DNA from: an archaeon
GTDB taxonomy: Archaea; EX4484-52; B79-G9
NCBI GenBank assembly: GCA_043813875.1
Contig: JBDRKP010000053.1
Span: forward strand, 1-54,834
DNA length: 54,834 bases
Direction: 5' to 3'
The position numbers were made by a program. Position 1 is the first letter of the stretch. Each line of letters opens with the position of its first letter. This document shows positions 12,001 to 18,000 of this stretch, piece after piece.

Positions 12001-15000
12001 CTGTCGTGGGGGATATCGGTGAGGGCGCTAAGGTCAGATGATTAGCAATCCATGCGTTTTCGGTTTCTGTTGGGCTTTTTCTAATACATTAATGTGATTT
12101 GGAGATGATAATAGCAAATCATTTATTTCTTCTATGGATGATGCTGTCTTAATGTGCAACGGAAATACTCTCTCTTCCAAAGTGTGTTTCTGTAAATCGA
12201 TTTTGGATAAATACCCCATACCAGCGGGGACATACATGACCGTGTCATAAGCCAGCACCCAGTCGGTATCAGACAATATTTCTGTCGGTTTCTGGTCTAT
12301 CAGGCGAATGTTATAGAGAATGCCAGCATCAGGCGTGTTACTGCCTATCCTTTCGATATAGACGGTCATCAGGCTGTTGCCTTCTCTGATCGTTTCTGTG
12401 ATGGCCGGAAGAGTGTCGCGCTCTCTGAGAGCCATGATGCTTCCTATGAGCCAATCCTTCTTTTCTGAAAGAATTTTCCTGTACGTCTCAACTAAAGTAG
12501 CGCTATAATTGCCGCTCACAACAACACCTCAATCTGCCGTGGGATATATATGGACAGAAATAGTTATAATTCTACTGATGGTCAGGATATGTAGATTTTA
12601 TAGAATACAACCATTGAAAGTGTAAAGGCGAGTAATAGATATTTAGAGGCAATGGGGAAATATATCTAATATTTGGGTATGAAACTGCCTGCTGCGGCTT
12701 TTACAATCCCGTCTATCACTTTTTCGATGTAATCAGGGATTGCGCTTTCCTTTACGATATCCATTCCCCTGTATTTACTCCTCTCACACCGGAGGTCATC
12801 CGGAATCAGGTAGATCTGCCCCAATACATCTATCCCTTTCCCTTTCTTGTCCATCAAAACATCTGCCGAACAGGGAGAATATGTCTTGTCACTAAAAATG
12901 TAATGGCAGCATTTTTTCATATGGATCATGCGATAATGTATTCTGAAGAACGCCTTTTTTTTACAGGTTTATTCACCAGTGCTCCGAGGCCGATTCTTTC
13001 TAAGACCTCTTCGATAGTCTTAGCGCTGCGAATCTCTTTTGGTTCGCTGGATTCTGAACTGATATACAACGGGTCTTTACTTACCTCATTAGGTCTGATC
13101 ATCAATCCATGAATCTGGTTTTTGCCTGTATTTTTCAGAATGATCACTTTATTCGCGTTGGCATAGCCGCCGCATCTGAATTCCGGTGATGTATATATTG
13201 TTGCACTAGCATCACGTTTCTCAATTTTACCTTCTGACTGAATTGTCCAGTAACTCTCTAAACCCTTTTCCATCTGTTGTATCCCGTACAATGCAGAAAT
13301 AGCTACATCTTCCTCCTTCAAAAAATCAGATGAAATTCCAGTATCTACTCTTTCCTCGCCTTTTACAACACCGAGATATAGAGCATCATCACCTTGAACA
13401 ATATACATACCTTCATTCAATTCTTTTTTTCTATAAAAATTCTCTTCGCTTATTATATTCATTGTCATTATAACCACCTCATCCTAACATGATCATTATT
13501 ATTACTTTTTTGTAATTAATTGTTTTATATATTTAAATACTTTTTGGTAGTGACATTATTTTTGTTGGCTCATCCTTTGAACTTGGTGGATTTTTGCACA
13601 TCTTTTTCCCATATGATTAATGCCAAGTATTATATGTATGGAATGCTGATTATTGTCATGGTCGGCATGAAGGACATTGATGGCGCGAGGCATGAAGTGC
13701 GCAGGTATAGAGGATTTACGCTTGATCAGTTCCAGGTCGATGCCATCTCTTCTATCGAGAATAATCATTCGGCCGTGGTGTCTGCGCCCACGGGGTCAGG
13801 AAAGACGCTTATCGCGGACTATATCATCAATAAGTATATCGATAAGGGCATCAAGGTGATATATACTGCGCCTATCAAGGCGCTTTCCAACCAGAAGTAC
13901 AAGGAGTTCTCGAAGGATTATGGAAAGGAGCGCGTCGGGCTTATCACCGGCGATGTGACTATCAACCCGGGGGCGCCTGTGATCATCATGACGACTGAGA
14001 TATACCGCAATATGGCTATAACTCATGATCCTGCGCTTGATTCTGTGGCTTATGTGATTTTTGATGAGATACATTTCATCAATGATGTCGAGAGAGGCTA
14101 TGTGTGGGAGGAGTCTATCATATTTTCAGATGAACGCGTGCGAATGCTCTGCCTTTCTGCCACGATCCCTAATGCGCGCGAGTTCGCGGACTGGATAAAG
14201 GCTATAAAGGGGCATGAAGTGGATACGATCATGAATGACAAGAGGCCGGTGCCGCTTCACCGGGCCTTTTTTGAGCGCGAGCTAGGCATCACTACGCTTG
14301 ATGAGATTAAGAAAAAGCACGAGAGAGAGAAGGTACAGTACATGGGATTCAGGAAGCGGAGAGGGGACATGGGTGATAAGAACAGTACGCATGTCGAGCT
14401 TGTGTCGCTTATCAGGGATAAGCTGCCCTGCTTTTTTTTCACGTTCTCGAGGCAGAAATGCCAGTTGAATGCACTTGAGCTTGCAAGATCGGAGATGTTT
14501 GAGCGCAATGATGAGATGAGTTCGCGTATAAGGAAGAAGCTGAGTGATTCTGTTCCTGAGATCAATAACCTTAAGTCTATGCGGGATCTACGATCGGTGC
14601 TACCTTACGGGATAGCTTTCCATCATGCGGGGCTTCTGCCCATCATCAAAGAGCTTGTCGAGGAGCTTTTTTCAGAGGGGCTTATCAAGGTGCTTTATAC
14701 GACCGAGACGTTTGCCGTGGGCATCAATATGCCTGCAAAAAGCGTGTGCTTCGATTCGATGATGAAGTATGACGGCATCAATTTCCGGTATCTCAATTCC
14801 AAGGAGTATTTCCAGATCGCCGGCAGGGCCGGGCGGAGGGGCATTGATAAGGAAGGGTTCGCGTATGCGATTGTCGGGGGGCGGGATTTCAATTATGAGA
14901 TGCTGAAAAAGATAACCAGAAAGGATACGGAGCCGATAAGGTCGCAGTTCCGGCTTTCTGTGAATACTGTGCTGAATCTTGTGAAACAGCATACCAAGGA

Positions 15001-18000
15001 AGAGATAGATAATATCCTGTGCAAGAATTTCAGTACATACCAGAAATACGGCAAAAGGTTCGATAAGGAGAAGGAGGCGGTCATCTATCGCAATTTCAAT
15101 AATATACGAAAGAAGCTTCTTGCCCTGAATTATATAGAGGGGAACAATCTTACTGAGAAGGGGGAGTTTTCGAGGAGGATATATTCGGAGGAGATCGCTA
15201 CGGGAGAGATTTTCGGGACGCGGCTCTATACGAGGATGAATGACTATGAGATACTTCTTGTGATTGCGTGTCTTGCTTATGAACATAAGCCAAAGAACGA
15301 GTTTTTCAAGAAGTTTGATAACCGGACTACGCGGGCGCTTATCCAGAAGGTCAATTCAGTGCCGTATCTGGCCAAGGTGAAGAATTTCGCTTATATGAAG
15401 GAGCTTACTGCGCTCATATACCCGTGCTACCGGGGGTCCAGCATTTTTGAGATCATGAGGAACACGAGCCTTCTTGAGGGCGATGTGATACGTTTCTTCA
15501 GGCAGATCATCGACCGTATAGGGCAGATTAGGAATGCCACTACGGATTATAAGCTGATCGATATGCTTGATAAGTGCGAGGATAAGATCAACCGCGCGAT
15601 GGGGGATATTGATGTCATTTGATTGCGTTTTTTGTTGATGATTATTTTTTGATTCATCCGAATCTGTATCTTACGACTCCTTATGGGTCTTGTCTGACAA
15701 CCCACACTGATACATATTCTCATGCATTATCTTCGATATATTGTCTTAGGATCAGGTATTTGCTTCAATCTGAAAGAAAAATGGGCAGTATACTGGTTGA
15801 AAGACAACACTTGAAGTTCTCACTTAAGGCAGGCTTTGATGAGGCCCATGAACAACGGGTGCGGATTCAGGGGGCCTGATTTGAATTCGGGGTGGGCCTG
15901 GGTCGCTACGAAGAATTTCCTGTCTTTTAGTTCCATGAATTCCATGAGCTTGCCGTCGGGAGATGTGCCTGAAAATGTGAGGCCGTGACTTTCCAGTTTT
16001 TCTATGTATGCGGGGTTGACTTCGTACCTGTGGCGGTGGCGCTCGGATACTTCGTCTTTGCCGTAAAGCTTGTGGACTATCGTTCCTTTTTTGAGGATGG
16101 CGTTGTATGCGCCAAGACGCATTGTAGCGCCGTACCGGTTGTTTTTTATGAGCTCTTTCTGTTCCGGGAGGATGTCTATCACAGGGTATGCTGTCTTTGG
16201 GTCCATCTCTGTGGAATGAGCGCCTGACATGCCGCAGGCGTTTCTTGCGTATTCTATGACCGAGAGCTGCATGCCGAGACAGAGACCGAGAAGCGGAATG
16301 TCGTTTTCTCTCAAGTATCTTATAGCCGTGATTATCCCTTCTATGCCTTTGTCGCCGAAGCCGCCGGGGATGACTGCGCAATCATATCCTTTGAGTATCT
16401 CTTCTGGTGATTGCTCTTCAAGGACGGTGGATTGTATCTGGGTAATCTTTGGCCTGACTCCGTTGTGGGCGCATGCGTGCTTTATCGCCTCAAGGACTGA
16501 AAGATATACGTCGGCATGGTCTGTCTTGCCGTGGGATACGTATTTGCCTATCAGGGCGATGTTCAATTCTTTTTCTGCGTTTTTGAGCATGCGGGTGTAT
16601 TTTTTCCATTCGGAGAGGTCTATGCCGTCAAACATGCCGAATTTTTCAAGTATCTTCTCGCCGAAGTCCTGCTTTTCGAATAGCTGAGGTATCTTATAGA
16701 CGCTGTCAAGGTCGGGATTGTCTATTATGTATTCCTCGTCGACGAAGCATCTTTTTGCGATTATCCAGCGGCGGGGCTTGTCTATGCCTATCTCTGACCT
16801 CGCCACGACGAAATCAGGGTATATGCCGACCTCTCTGAGTTTTGACATAGCATGCTGGGTGGGCTTGGTTTTCAGCTCGTTTACGTTCTTGAGGTATGGG
16901 ACGTATGTCACCATGACGCTTACTGACGGGTATTCTCTTGAGAGTTCCCGTACCGCATGAAGGAATACGAGGTTCTCGATGTCGCCTGTGGTGCCGCCTA
17001 CCTCGACGAGCGTGAATTCGTTGCCGTCTGTGGATTCCAGTATCCTCCTTTTGACCTCGTCTACAATGTCCGGGATGACTTCCACGTCGCGCCCGTTGTA
17101 TTTTAGCTGGCGCTCTTTCTCTATGACCGATAAGTATATCTGGCCGGTCGTGATGTTGTTTCTCTTCGGCACGTGGATGTTCAGGAAGCGCTCGTAGTTG
17201 CCCAAGTCCTGGTCTATCTCGCCGCCGTCTTCGGTGACGTAGACCTCGCCGTGCTCTGTGGGGCGCATGGTGCCGGCATCGATGTTTATGTAGGGGTCGA
17301 TTTTCACTGCCGTGACCGAGTAGCCGCCGGATTTGAGGAGAGCGCCGACGGATGATGTCACTATGCCTTTCCCGAGACCTGACAGCACACCGCCTATTAC
17401 GAATATGAATTTTGGTTTATCGTTTTTTTTAGAAGAAGATTTTCTTTCCATAATGTATTGTTAGTGCGCTAAGAAATTTTATATAATGATTGCCTGTCTT
17501 TTATCAAGGTTTATAAAATTTGTTTTTCTATTGTGTCTAATGCCTGATTATAAAGAGAGGATGATTTCTACACTGATGCATACTTTTGCCGGTGTCGGCA
17601 TGGGTTATGTCTCAAAGGATATAATCGCCGGATATGGCGGGAGCACGGTGGCTTTTGTCGGCGCGGTTGTGCTGATATTGATGAACCAGGTCGTCAAGTT
17701 CGGGCTGAAGAAGCATGAGTTCAACTGGTGGATGGGAAACGGCATCTGGCCTTATCTTTCTACGTGGTTTGCTGTGTGGGTTATTGTCCTTAATGTGTGA
17801 GTTTTGAAGCTTCTGCTTTAGGGGTCGTGTTTTTCAATAGTCTTATTCTGAGTTAGTAACCGGGTATGGATAGCTATTAAAAAATAAGAAAGCAAACTAT
17901 TGTATTGTTGTTACCGGGGAGATTTGTGTAATTTTGGGGGCGGTTTGTGTGAATGAGACGATTAAGAATCTTGCTTTGGCATTTGTCGGCGAGAGCCAGG

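What a model noticed while it worked through the whole genome (the two positions that open the first line are those of the whole stretch)
13613..15622. An arch-less Mtr4/Ski2-type (DSHCT) RNA helicase in an archaeon
g00940 (669 aa) belongs to the Mtr4/Ski2 branch of Ski2-like helicases (COG4581, with the C-terminal DSHCT domain). This branch serves the RNA exosome in eukaryotes, and a 2024 survey of archaeal Ski2-like helicases found it to be exclusively eukaryal. The protein has the whole helicase core but lacks the arch/KOW insertion, like the engineered arch-deleted human MTR4. The genome also has Hel308 (g00150) and exosome genes (g00887-g00889), so this is a candidate exosome helicase of archaea.
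Evidence so far: Pfam: DEAD, Helicase_C and DSHCT 511-661 (E 1.9e-16). The best Swiss-Prot hits are animal and plant MTR4, 38-40% identity over about 450-480 residues. Against solved structures: human MTR4 lacking the arch (6c90) scores 344 bits over residues 34-650, yeast Mtr4 334 and Ski2 about 310, while archaeal Hel308/Hjm score only 133-160 bits. Close relatives (58-83% identical, about 640 aa, all with PF08148) fill the 120 best rows of the protein search and are named from DPANN, Woese-, Nano- and Nanohaloarchaeota. The survey (PMC10946056, passages, call 126) says the COG4581 group is 'exclusively composed of eukaryal sequences'. A paper search for Mtr4+archaea+DSHCT gave 1 unrelated paper.
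(Added by a program. Inside this text positions count along the whole contig: contig position 1 is position 1 of the stretch shown here. "Call 12" and the like, gene names such as g00115 and contig names such as C1 are that model's own, and its searches are not shown. The text may have been shortened before it was handed on; [...] marks where a part breaks off. The agent that wrote the report below was given it as the finding of a first reader that could run no searches.)

Follow-up and report, generated by a model that had tools for sequence, protein, structure and literature searches.

The report
Arch-less DSHCT RNA helicase in DPANN archaeon
This archaeal gene encodes an intact Mtr4/Ski2/HelY-type RNA helicase that naturally lacks the "arch" domain, but it belongs to a helicase group shared with many bacteria and is not a close relative of the eukaryotic exosome helicases.

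Summary
Window 13613-15622 (+) encodes an intact Ski2-like helicase with a DSHCT domain and no arch. Its best solved matches are arch-deleted human MTR4, then yeast Mtr4 and Ski2. The likely start is GTG 13697 (641 aa), not ATG 13613.

The family is common in DPANN archaea: 12 of 42 genomes of the window's phylum and 132 of 301 sampled genomes of a Woesearchaeota-type phylum. About 640-aa arch-less relatives and 750-820-aa short-insert relatives are also widespread in bacteria (Omnitrophota, Planctomycetota, Fibrobacterota, Bacillota, Poribacteria).

In four trees the DPANN proteins form one clade with these bacteria (100/99 support). Eukaryotic Mtr4/Ski2 and arch-bearing Hodarchaeales proteins lie outside it. 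AU tests reject DPANN+eukaryotes (p 0.0011) and DPANN+Asgard+eukaryotes (p 0.0022).

Nothing links the helicase to the exosome:
- It lacks the eukaryotic N-terminal extension.
- It has no conserved gene neighbour.
- It is found in far fewer genomes than the near-universal exosome.

Best reading: a stand-alone 3'-to-5' RNA helicase of a prokaryotic, HelY-related, arch-less subfamily. Exosome coupling is an untested minority possibility. Interest is moderate.

The parts
13697..15622 (+). Most likely coding sequence of the helicase (GTG start, 641 aa, stop included)
   Evidence: The frame is open 13520-15622. All 13 relatives with a readable N-terminus start at an ATG five residues before the conserved T/V/I-L-D. 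The window has GTG (V29 of the 669-aa model) at that place, preceded by GAGG. Relatives are about 640 aa.
13613..13696 (+).
   Evidence: pLDDT is 23-33 for residues 1-29. Relatives have no counterpart. An in-frame ATG at 13667 is an alternative start.
13524..13539 (+). AT-rich TATA-like stretch in the divergent intergenic region upstream
   Evidence: Read directly from the sequence. Inference only, not tested.
13730..14179 (+). RecA1 domain (Pfam DEAD, residues 40-189 of the 669-aa model), with motif I APTGSGKT (13784-13807) and motif II DEIH (14063-14074)
   Evidence: Pfam DEAD E 1.9e-25. T60 G61 G63 K64 T65, D151 E152 H154 and S182 A183 T184 are invariant in 37 aligned relatives.
14387..14947 (+). 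RecA2 domain (about residues 259-445), including Pfam Helicase_C 324-410, a beta-hairpin at 377-393 and motif VI QIAGRAGRRG (14813-14842)
   Evidence: Pfam Helicase_C. Strands 377-380, 384-386 and 391-393 in the model. Q401 and G404-G410 are invariant.
14960..15127 (+). Winged-helix region (about residues 450-505). It holds the site (about residues 479-495, 15047-15097) where Mtr4/Ski2 carry the arch and this protein has nothing
   Evidence: BLASTP break against MTR4 at query 478/479 = MTR4 587/802. Segment 470-515 is 46 aa here, 245-544 aa in 14 eukaryotes and 61-62 aa in Hel308.
15143..15595 (+). DSHCT helical-bundle (ratchet) domain, residues 511-661
   Evidence: Pfam PF08148 57.9 bits (cut-off 22.7). 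The genome search places it at C53:15143-15595. It is helical at 515-666 in the model.

Best explanation
The gene encodes an intact, monocistronic ATP-dependent Ski2-like helicase of the DSHCT (Mtr4/Ski2/HelY, COG4581) family. It has a minimal architecture: RecA1, RecA2, winged helix and the DSHCT helical bundle, with no arch and no N-terminal extension.

It belongs to a prokaryotic subfamily. That subfamily is common in DPANN archaea and in several bacterial phyla (Omnitrophota, Planctomycetota, Fibrobacterota, Bacillota, Poribacteria and others). It is a separate clade from eukaryotic Mtr4/Ski2 and from the arch-bearing helicases of Hodarchaeales. Its spread across the two domains implies horizontal transfer, whose direction is not resolved.

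Inferred mechanism, from the fold and from characterised relatives. The protein loads on a single-stranded 3' RNA tail. It threads the tail through the channel formed by the four domains. It translocates 3'-to-5' at the cost of ATP, and the RecA2 beta-hairpin splits the duplex. This unwinds structured RNA or RNA:DNA hybrids for RNA turnover or processing.

Lacking the arch and the N-terminal tether, it most likely works as a stand-alone enzyme without dedicated adaptors. Any hand-over to a 3'-5' nuclease (the exosome in this archaeon) is unproven.

Shown here: family, architecture, intact motifs, phylogenetic position, distribution. Inferred: RNA substrate, polarity, cellular role.
For: Family and fold:
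- Pfam DEAD, Helicase_C and DSHCT.
- PDB by sequence: MTR4 343.6 bits, Ski2 about 310, Hel308 at most 160.
- AlphaFold2 model with pLDDT 84.8. Foldseek's top hit is arch-less MTR4 6c90 (E 8e-45, TM 0.82), against Hel308 at TM 0.69.
- Motifs I, II, III and VI are invariant in 37 relatives, and mean column identity is 66%.

No arch and no N-terminal extension: the insert segment is 38-53 aa in 30 DPANN rows against 245-544 aa in 14 eukaryotes. The N-terminus before the core has a median of 5-13 aa against 132 aa.

Prokaryotic subfamily:
- A scan of genome contigs found 591 relatives. Of the 80 kept, 12 are labelled archaeal and the rest bacterial or unlabelled.
- Of the 150 best 50%-cluster representatives, most are 640-820 aa. 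Eukaryote-length proteins first appear at about 340-360 bits.
- Trees with 241, 85 and 46 rows (the last built quick, careful and on the RecA core only) all give a bacteria+DPANN clade with support 99-100 that excludes eukaryotes and the Hodarchaeales group.
- AU tests give p 0.0011 and 0.0022.

Distribution: 12 of 42 genomes of the window's phylum. 132 of 301 genomes of a Woesearchaeota-type phylum, in open frames of 545-714 aa (all but two at least 630 aa).

Stand-alone gene: it is divergent from its upstream ORFs and convergent with CTP synthase. No neighbour family recurs in 3 or more of 21 DPANN loci. None recurs in more than 5 of 80 prokaryotic loci.

RNA role by analogy. [quoted passage not shown] This comes from passages of PMC8931766 citing Uson 2015. 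This genome has only two Ski2-like helicases, Hel308 and this one.
Against: - No biochemical or expression data exist for any arch-less member. Substrate and polarity rest on homology alone.
- The only RNA-library evidence is one 164-nt contig, which may be DNA carry-over.
- The deep backbone of the tree is an unresolved polytomy among Actinomycetota, the Hodarchaeales group, eukaryotes and the crown clade. The root rests on a long Hel308 branch (about 2 changes per column).
- With the RecA core alone the DPANN rows are no longer one clade. The direction and number of transfers are therefore open.
- The AU hypotheses were tested after a first tree had been seen.
- Many rows have deviant amino-acid composition.
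- High conservation among DPANN lineages (58-83% identity) could reflect a conserved partner that I did not find.
Confidence: 0.7

Rival explanations
1. One reading: an archaeal counterpart of Mtr4/Ski2 that docks on the archaeal exosome (Rrp4/Csl4 cap) and feeds it unwound 3' ends, forming a minimal, adaptor-free helicase-exosome machine.
For: - It has the same fold and channel architecture as the MTR4 core that sits on the exosome.
- The genome has a complete SBDS-Rrp4-Rrp41-Rrp42 operon.
- It is the only Ski2-like helicase in the genome besides Hel308. No ASH-Ski2-like third hit was found.
- 131 of the 132 helicase-positive genomes in the 301-genome sample also have the exosome core.
- Strong sequence conservation across DPANN.
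Against: - It is not in the eukaryotic clade (AU tests).
- Its closest non-DPANN kin are bacteria. Their RNase_PH matches lie in PNPase-length frames (706-721 aa) or RNase PH-length frames, not in an archaeal-type exosome.
- It lacks the N-terminal region. In Mtr4 that region, as I recall, tethers the helicase to Rrp6/Rrp47 (absence shown).
- The helicase is found in only 12 of 42 and 132 of 301 genomes, against 41 of 42 and 295 of 301 for the exosome. The exosome therefore works without it in most of these lineages. Genome incompleteness applies.
- One helicase-positive genome (G216) shows no RNase_PH match.
- It is never encoded next to exosome genes.
Confidence: 0.17
2. A DNA-repair, replication or R-loop helicase that acts like Hel308, or on RNA:DNA hybrids at stalled forks or transcription complexes, and has no role in RNA decay.
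For: - The Ski2-like core is shared with Hel308 and Pol-theta helicases.
- HelY unwinds RNA:DNA hybrids, and its gene was induced together with DNA-repair genes in M. smegmatis (passages of PMC8931766).
Against: - It scores 184 bits against the Hel308 model, whose cut-off is 1200.
- The genome already has a Hel308.
- The C-terminal bundle is DSHCT, not the Hel308 ratchet plus HLH.
- HelY needs an RNA loading strand.
Confidence: 0.09
3. A defence helicase of the Hachiman (HamB) type, or a mis-binned bacterial gene.
For: - PADLOC HamB models match the helicase core (best 114.7 bits).
- Two of the 120 close relatives carry bacterial labels.
Against: - HamB similarity is core-only and far weaker than to MTR4 (343.6 bits).
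- There is no HamA-like or any other conserved neighbour.
- The contig carries archaeal markers (FttA/aCPSF1, archaeal Pus10, EMC6_arch) and has even GC content.
- The gene recurs in 12 of 42 related genomes, and in the 241-row tree the rows of the window's own genus group together.
- The 'bacterium' and 'KSB1' rows nest among Woesearchaeota rows.
Confidence: 0.03

Closest known systems
Eukaryotic Mtr4 (MTR4/SKIV2L2/Dob1), including the engineered arch-deleted human MTR4 (PDB 6c90)
   Same: The four-domain DExH core is the same (RecA1, RecA2, WH, DSHCT bundle). Identity is 41% over the RecA core. It gives the best sequence and fold matches among solved structures. The helicase motifs are intact.
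   Different: - No arch: PF13234 is listed in all 120 MTR4-like rows, all 949 aa or longer, and is absent here.
- No N-terminal extension of about 130 aa.
- The DSHCT region is only about 20% identical.
- It lies in a separate clade (AU p 0.0011).
- No Rrp6/Rrp47/Mpp6-type partners are known in archaea (recalled).
Eukaryotic Ski2 (SKI2/SKIV2L)
   Same: The DSHCT helicase core is shared. It scores 308-312 bits and TM 0.80.
   Different: Ski2 has a long N-terminal region and an arch-type insertion, and it works within the Ski2-3-8 complex (PDB titles). None of this is present here.
Mycobacterial HelY (KEGG K03727) and Actinomycetota relatives
   Same: It is a prokaryotic DSHCT helicase. [quoted passage not shown]
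   Different: Actinomycetota proteins are 889-914 aa with a 229-250-aa segment at the arch site. They form a separate, deeper clade. Identity is 37-38% over the core.
Arch-less bacterial DSHCT helicases of Omnitrophota, Planctomycetota and Fibrobacterota, and 750-820-aa forms of Bacillota and Poribacteria (uncharacterised)
   Same: They are in the same crown clade (support 99-100). The first group has the same length of about 640 aa and no insert. All are stand-alone genes.
   Different: They are 34-49% identical to the query. The Bacillota and Poribacteria forms keep an 86-167-aa segment at the arch site. One representative of the Poribacteria-containing subclade (P0144) reaches the Pfam MTR4-like_stalk cut-off.
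Archaeal Hel308/Hjm and ASH-Ski2
   Same: They are Ski2-like SF2 helicases of archaea with a RecA1-RecA2-WH-ratchet core.
   Different: The query scores 184 bits against a Hel308 cut-off of 1200. Hel308 has a different C-terminus. A separate Hel308 gene exists in this genome. ASH-Ski2 (COG1202) has an N-terminal zinc finger and was not seen in this genome.

Membership tests
Ski2-like SF2 helicases | RecA1 and RecA2 with DExH motifs I, II, III and VI, followed by winged-helix and ratchet/helical-bundle domains | tested here: met
   Pfam DEAD and Helicase_C. Motifs are invariant in 37 relatives. The model has all four domains and matches Mtr4, Ski2 and Hel308 folds.
DSHCT helicases (COG4581: Mtr4/Ski2/HelY) | C-terminal DSHCT (PF08148) helical bundle | tested here: met
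   57.9 bits against a cut-off of 22.7, residues 511-661. 61.7 bits in the genome search.
Eukaryotic Mtr4/Ski2 branch | Arch insertion (stalk plus KOW/beta-barrel; PF13234, PF21408) in the winged-helix region | tested here: not met
   No PF13234 or PF21408 hit. About 215 MTR4 residues have no counterpart. The segment is 46 aa against 245-544 aa in eukaryotes.
Eukaryotic Mtr4/Ski2 branch | N-terminal extension that tethers the helicase to its partners (Rrp6/Rrp47 for Mtr4, Ski3 for Ski2; these roles are recalled) | tested here: not met
   The core starts 5-13 residues after the start codon in DPANN rows, against a median of 132 in 14 eukaryotes.
Eukaryotic Mtr4/Ski2 branch | Phylogenetic placement with Mtr4/Ski2 to the exclusion of bacterial DSHCT helicases | tested here: not met
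   It groups with bacteria at support 99-100. AU tests reject DPANN+eukaryotes (p 0.0011) and DPANN+Asgard+eukaryotes (p 0.0022).
Eukaryotic Mtr4/Ski2 branch | Physical and functional coupling to the RNA exosome | not testable with these tools
   It needs reconstitution or pull-down. Co-occurrence is uninformative because the exosome is near-universal.
HelY (K03727) in the strict, Actinomycetota sense | About 900 aa with an insert of about 190 aa at the arch site, and placement in the Actinomycetota clade | tested here: not met
   There is no insert. The Actinomycetota rows form a separate clade.
HelY-like activity | RNA-stimulated ATPase with 3'-to-5' unwinding and an RNA loading strand | not testable with these tools
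   Biochemistry is needed. This is inferred from homology only.
Hel308 | Score above the NCBIfam equivalog cut-off | tested here: not met
   184 bits against 1200.
Hachiman HamB | Helicase encoded beside a HamA (DUF1837) partner | tested here: not met
   Only core similarity to HamB models. The neighbours have no Pfam family or are housekeeping genes, and none is conserved.

The most novel reading that the evidence does not exclude
The DPANN arch-less DSHCT helicase is the long-sought helicase partner of the archaeal exosome. It would dock directly on the Rrp4/Csl4 cap without an arch, an N-terminal tether or adaptor proteins. Such a minimal helicase-exosome machine would have been acquired or exchanged with bacteria and would be optional among small-genome archaea. 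The arch-bearing Hodarchaeales proteins would then mark the line that led to eukaryotic Mtr4/Ski2.
Probability: 0.15. Interest if true: 0.75.

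Novelty: new variant of a known kind. Interest (0 to 1): 0.42.

Why it matters
A 2024 survey of archaeal Ski2-like helicases reported that no archaeon has a COG4581/DSHCT helicase. 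That is not true once uncultivated lineages are included. The helicase turns up in roughly 3 in 10 genomes of the window's phylum and 4 in 10 sampled genomes of a Woesearchaeota-type phylum. Hodarchaeales carry arch-bearing versions.

The DPANN proteins, together with many bacterial ones, define a naturally arch-less form of a helicase family that has been studied almost only in its eukaryotic, arch-bearing form. None of these arch-less proteins has been characterised. They offer a small, adaptor-free model for the Mtr4/Ski2 core and a concrete candidate to test against the archaeal exosome.

The phylogeny warns against reading the protein as a 'eukaryote-like' trait of this archaeon. It is a prokaryotic subfamily that has crossed the domain boundary.

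Tried and rejected
- **Complex prediction** of the helicase (residues 30-669, 37-row alignment) with this genome's Rrp4 (13-row alignment). The result was 'no answer', score 0.00 in two runs, and controls were not run. It is not evidence either way.
- **AU test on the 85-row set** did not finish in two 300-s calls. I cut the set to 46 rows and ran it there.
- **Co-variation with the exosome.** RNase_PH is in 41 of 42 and 295 of 301 genomes, so presence or absence carries no signal.
- **Conserved gene neighbours.** None recurs in 3 or more of 21 DPANN loci. None recurs in more than 5 of 80 prokaryotic loci, and the 5-locus families are mostly synteny among five Poribacteria.
- **Expression.** One RNA run held a small share of the sampled words. 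When laid, it gave a single 164-nt contig, 100% identical, at 14173-14336. This is too little to claim transcription.
- **Defence system.** PADLOC gives only HamB core similarity.
- **The primary HelY paper** (PMC4560288) is not held. I used passages of two citing papers instead.
- **Literature searches** found no paper on DSHCT or Mtr4-type helicases in DPANN: 'DSHCT'+'archaea' (2 unrelated papers), 'Mtr4'+'DPANN' (the survey and one Asgard preprint), 'Mtr4'+'archaeal'+'Asgard'+'exosome' (the survey only), 'COG4581' (the survey only), 'Ski2-like'+'Woesearchaeota' (0). Supplementary tables of the survey were not read.

Full report
**1. What is there**

The coordinates given are window coordinates.

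- Pfam finds DEAD (40-189, E 1.9e-25), Helicase_C (324-410) and DSHCT (511-661, 57.9 bits against a cut-off of 22.7).
- Against all PDB chains, the best hit is the engineered arch-less human MTR4 (6c90, 343.6 bits, query 34-650). Yeast Mtr4 follows at about 334 bits and Ski2 at 308-312. Archaeal Hel308/Hjm reach only 133-160.
- NCBI's Hel308 model scores 184 bits where 1200 is required.
- Motifs I (APTGSGKT), II (DEIH), III (SAT) and VI (QIAGRAGRRG) are invariant in an alignment of 37 relatives with 66% mean column identity.
- An AlphaFold2 model from that alignment has pLDDT 84.8 and pTM 0.82. Foldseek ranks 6c90 first (E 8e-45, TM 0.82/0.79), and Hel308 reaches TM 0.69.

**2. Gene model**

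Residues 1-29 of the 669-aa model are predicted disordered (pLDDT 23-33). Fourteen relatives were examined. One (L008) is cut at its N-terminus. The other 13 all begin at an ATG five residues before the conserved T/V/I-L-D. At that position the window has no ATG, but there is a GTG one codon upstream (13697), preceded by GAGG. The likely product is therefore 641 aa (13697-15622). ATG 13667 is an alternative.

The gene is divergent from three small ORFs without Pfam families (12034-13477, - strand). It is convergent with CTP synthase (15820-17451, - strand). It therefore stands alone.

**3. No arch and no N-terminal extension**

BLASTP against a vertebrate MTR4 aligns query 35-479 with MTR4 130-587 (41% identity) and query 478-666 with MTR4 802-1003 (20%). 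MTR4 588-801 (the arch) and MTR4 1-129 have no counterpart.

In a 241-row alignment I measured the segment that corresponds to query 470-515 (46 aa):

| Group | Rows | Segment length (aa) |
|---|---|---|
| DPANN | 30 | 38-53 |
| Omnitrophota | 9 | 41-43 |
| Fibrobacterota | 3 | 45 |
| Planctomycetota | 17 | 41-187 (median 48) |
| Bacillota | 13 | 86-161 |
| Poribacteria | 5 | 167 |
| Actinomycetota | 3 | 229-250 |
| Hodarchaeales group | 4 | 276-290 |
| Eukaryotes | 14 | 245-544 |
| Hel308 (outgroup) | 6 | 61-62 |

The N-terminus ahead of the core has a median of 5-13 aa in DPANN rows and 132 aa in eukaryotes.

**4. Is it archaeal, and how common is it?**

The window also carries aCPSF1/FttA (26549-28429), an archaeal-type Pus10, EMC6_arch, an MCM-like gene and SRP54. 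GC content is even across the window. The genome is 1.64 Mb in 90 contigs and 91.5% complete. It has one DSHCT gene, one Hel308 and an SBDS-Rrp4-Rrp41-Rrp42 operon.

- DSHCT genes occur in 12 of the 42 genomes held for the window's phylum. That is 4 of the 10 that are at least 90% complete.
- The protein search returns 120 rows of 629-674 aa. Apart from the window's own protein (100%) they are 58-83% identical. Where labelled, they are called DPANN, Woese-, Nano- or Nanohaloarchaea.
- I sampled 301 genomes (at least 70% complete) of the phylum that contains one Woesearchaeota genome (G042). Of these, 132 have a DSHCT match. All but one have a single match, and the open frames are 545-714 aa, all but two of at least 630 aa. 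This tally includes one genome flagged as unpublished.
- None of the four archaeal control genomes named by the tool rang. Two of the 14 controls did, Synechococcus and Corynebacterium.

The 2024 survey (PMC10946056; outline and passages read) searched 219 complete archaeal genomes and 75 Asgard genomes and found no COG4581 member. Its statement is correct for its own sample and wrong for archaea as a whole.

**5. The family is largely bacterial**

A scan of one genome per prokaryotic species found 591 relatives. Of the 80 loci kept:

- 12 are labelled archaeal: 8 Woesearchaeota, 2 'Methanosarcinales' and 2 Thermoplasmat(ot)a.
- The rest are bacterial or unlabelled: Planctomycetota 20, Bacillota 16, Omnitrophota 10, Poribacteria 5, Actinomycetota 4, Fibrobacterota 3 and others.

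Bacillota proteins are 46-49% identical to the query over the core, which is closer than MTR4. An exhaustive search of 50%-identity cluster representatives gives 2,962 hits below 1e-30. The best 150 are mostly 640-820 aa. Proteins of eukaryotic length appear only at about 340-360 bits. Those I looked up are from Theileria, Cyanidium, Barthelona, Cryptosporidium and a crinoid SKI2W, plus one 1008-aa protein of Hodarchaeales.

**6. Phylogeny**

I built trees rooted on six or fewer Hel308 proteins of the window's phylum:

- FastTree on 241 rows.
- IQ-TREE with LG+C20 PMSF on 85 rows.
- IQ-TREE on 46 rows, quick and careful with ultrafast bootstrap.
- IQ-TREE on the RecA1-RecA2 columns alone.

Rows shorter than 560 aa were left out. 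The 85- and 46-row sets were chosen by hand to cover each clade of the first tree.

All the trees recover the following:

- A eukaryotic Mtr4+Ski2 clade (support 99-100).
- A crown clade that joins the DPANN proteins with the Bacillota-type, Omnitrophota/Planctomycetota/Fibrobacterota/Poribacteria and Ozemobacteraceae proteins. Support is 100, 99, 100/99 and 99.
- Actinomycetota HelY-like proteins and a Hodarchaeales group lying outside both.

The relations among these four groups are unresolved.

The DPANN rows form one clade with the full alignment (99, 95 and 98/95). Deep members are named Woesearchaeota and Nanoarchaeia. With the RecA core alone they are not one clade. The window's phylum nests inside Woesearchaeota diversity (support 98).

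AU tests on the 46-row set reject an exclusive DPANN+eukaryote clade (ΔlnL 41.5, p 0.0011). They also reject a DPANN+Hodarchaeales-group+eukaryote clade (ΔlnL 34.3, p 0.0022).

Caveats:
- The tests were framed after a first tree had been seen.
- The outgroup branch is long.
- Many rows have deviant composition.

Conclusion: the protein belongs to the DSHCT family but not to the eukaryotic branch. It shares a more recent ancestor with bacterial proteins, which implies transfer between domains in an undetermined direction.

**7. Function**

No neighbour is conserved. No neighbour family recurs in 3 or more of 21 DPANN loci, and none recurs in more than 5 of 80 prokaryotic loci.

The exosome core (two RNase_PH genes) is present in 41 of 42 genomes of the window's phylum and in 295 of 301 of the Woesearchaeota-type sample. 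The helicase is in 12 and 132 respectively, and one helicase-positive genome has no RNase_PH match. The exosome therefore does not need this helicase in most of these lineages, and co-variation cannot be used as a test.

The genome has no third Ski2-like helicase, so this is its only candidate Ski2-type RNA helicase. The one characterised prokaryotic relative is mycobacterial HelY. [quoted passage not shown]

I therefore commit to a stand-alone 3'-to-5' RNA helicase for RNA turnover or processing. The RecA2 beta-hairpin (377-393) would act as the strand separator, and the DSHCT bundle as the floor of the RNA channel. All of this is inferred from the fold. Exosome coupling gets about one chance in six. 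HamB-type defence and mis-binning are rejected.

**8. Comparison and novelty**

- The protein works like the Mtr4/Ski2/HelY core and is a member of the DSHCT family.
- It fails three defining features of the eukaryotic Mtr4/Ski2 branch: the arch, the N-terminal extension and the phylogenetic placement.
- It also fails the strict Actinomycetota HelY pattern, having neither the insert nor the clade.
- Sequence databases already name such proteins 'DEAD/DEAH box helicase' or 'superfamily II RNA helicase'.
- Five full-text searches found no paper that discusses them. One preprint mentions 'Mtr4' in Hodarchaeales in a single sentence.

I rate it a new variant of a known kind: a naturally arch-less, cross-domain subfamily with no characterised member. 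Interest is moderate. It corrects a published generalisation and offers a testable exosome-helicase candidate. The eukaryote-like reading that made it look striking does not survive the tree.

**9. Seen in passing**

The Hodarchaeales protein (1008 aa) models with long helices, a five-stranded beta domain and returning helices between residues about 465 and 721. That is an arch-like stalk and fist (pLDDT 78.4). Its best fold matches are full-length, arch-bearing Mtr4 chains aligned over 950-985 columns (E about 1e-52), although Pfam's arch model does not hit it. This protein, not the DPANN one, is the archaeal helicase most relevant to the origin of Mtr4/Ski2.

Noticed in passing
Protein P0238 (Hodarchaeales, 1008 aa; not in the window): This Asgard DSHCT helicase has an arch-like insertion. 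Helices 465-548, five beta strands at 554-609 and helices 624-721 lie between the WH and DSHCT domains (model pLDDT 78.4). Its best fold matches are full-length arch-bearing Mtr4 chains (E about 1e-52). Pfam PF13234 does not hit it. In the trees it sits with P0211, P0233 and P0209 in a polytomy next to eukaryotic Mtr4/Ski2.
   Followed up: partly
Loci L029-L057 and proteins P0133-P0177 (bacterial relatives): Bacillota, Poribacteria and other bacterial relatives of 750-820 aa carry an 86-167-aa segment at the arch site. Of 20 proteins scanned, 2 gave a weak MTR4-like_stalk (PF21408) match, and only one was above the cut-off. These may be short stalk-only arches.
   Followed up: partly
Loci L021 and L024 (genome handle G044): Two contigs labelled 'uncultured Methanosarcinales archaeon' carry the helicase. 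L021's genome (G044, 1.1 Mb) was drawn in the same phylum sample as the Woesearchaeota genome G042. Both proteins nest among Woesearchaeota rows. The public label is probably wrong.
   Followed up: partly
G000 contig C49, locus L002 434-3283 (- strand): An archaeal exosome super-operon, SBDS - Rrp4 (256 aa) - Rrp41 (233 aa) - Rrp42 (268 aa), lies on a different contig from the helicase.
   Followed up: yes
window 26549-28429 (+): aCPSF1/FttA-type beta-CASP ribonuclease with an N-terminal KH_TffA domain (626 aa). It lies 11 kb downstream of the helicase and is not adjacent to it.
   Followed up: no
window 39534-40751 (-): An ORF of only 405 aa has an MCM P-loop domain (112-292) and an MCM lid. 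This looks short for a replicative MCM. It may be an MCM-like AAA+ protein lacking most of the N-terminal domain, or a wrongly delimited gene.
   Followed up: no
window 12034-13477 (-): Three small ORFs (161, 87 and 183 aa) lie directly upstream and divergent from the helicase. They have no Pfam family and no counterpart next to the helicase in 20 other DPANN loci.
   Followed up: partly
window 9261-9902 (-): A 213-aa ORF combines a winged-helix (Penicillinase_R-like) stretch with a Pol-beta-type nucleotidyltransferase domain. It is divergent from methionyl-tRNA synthetase.
   Followed up: no
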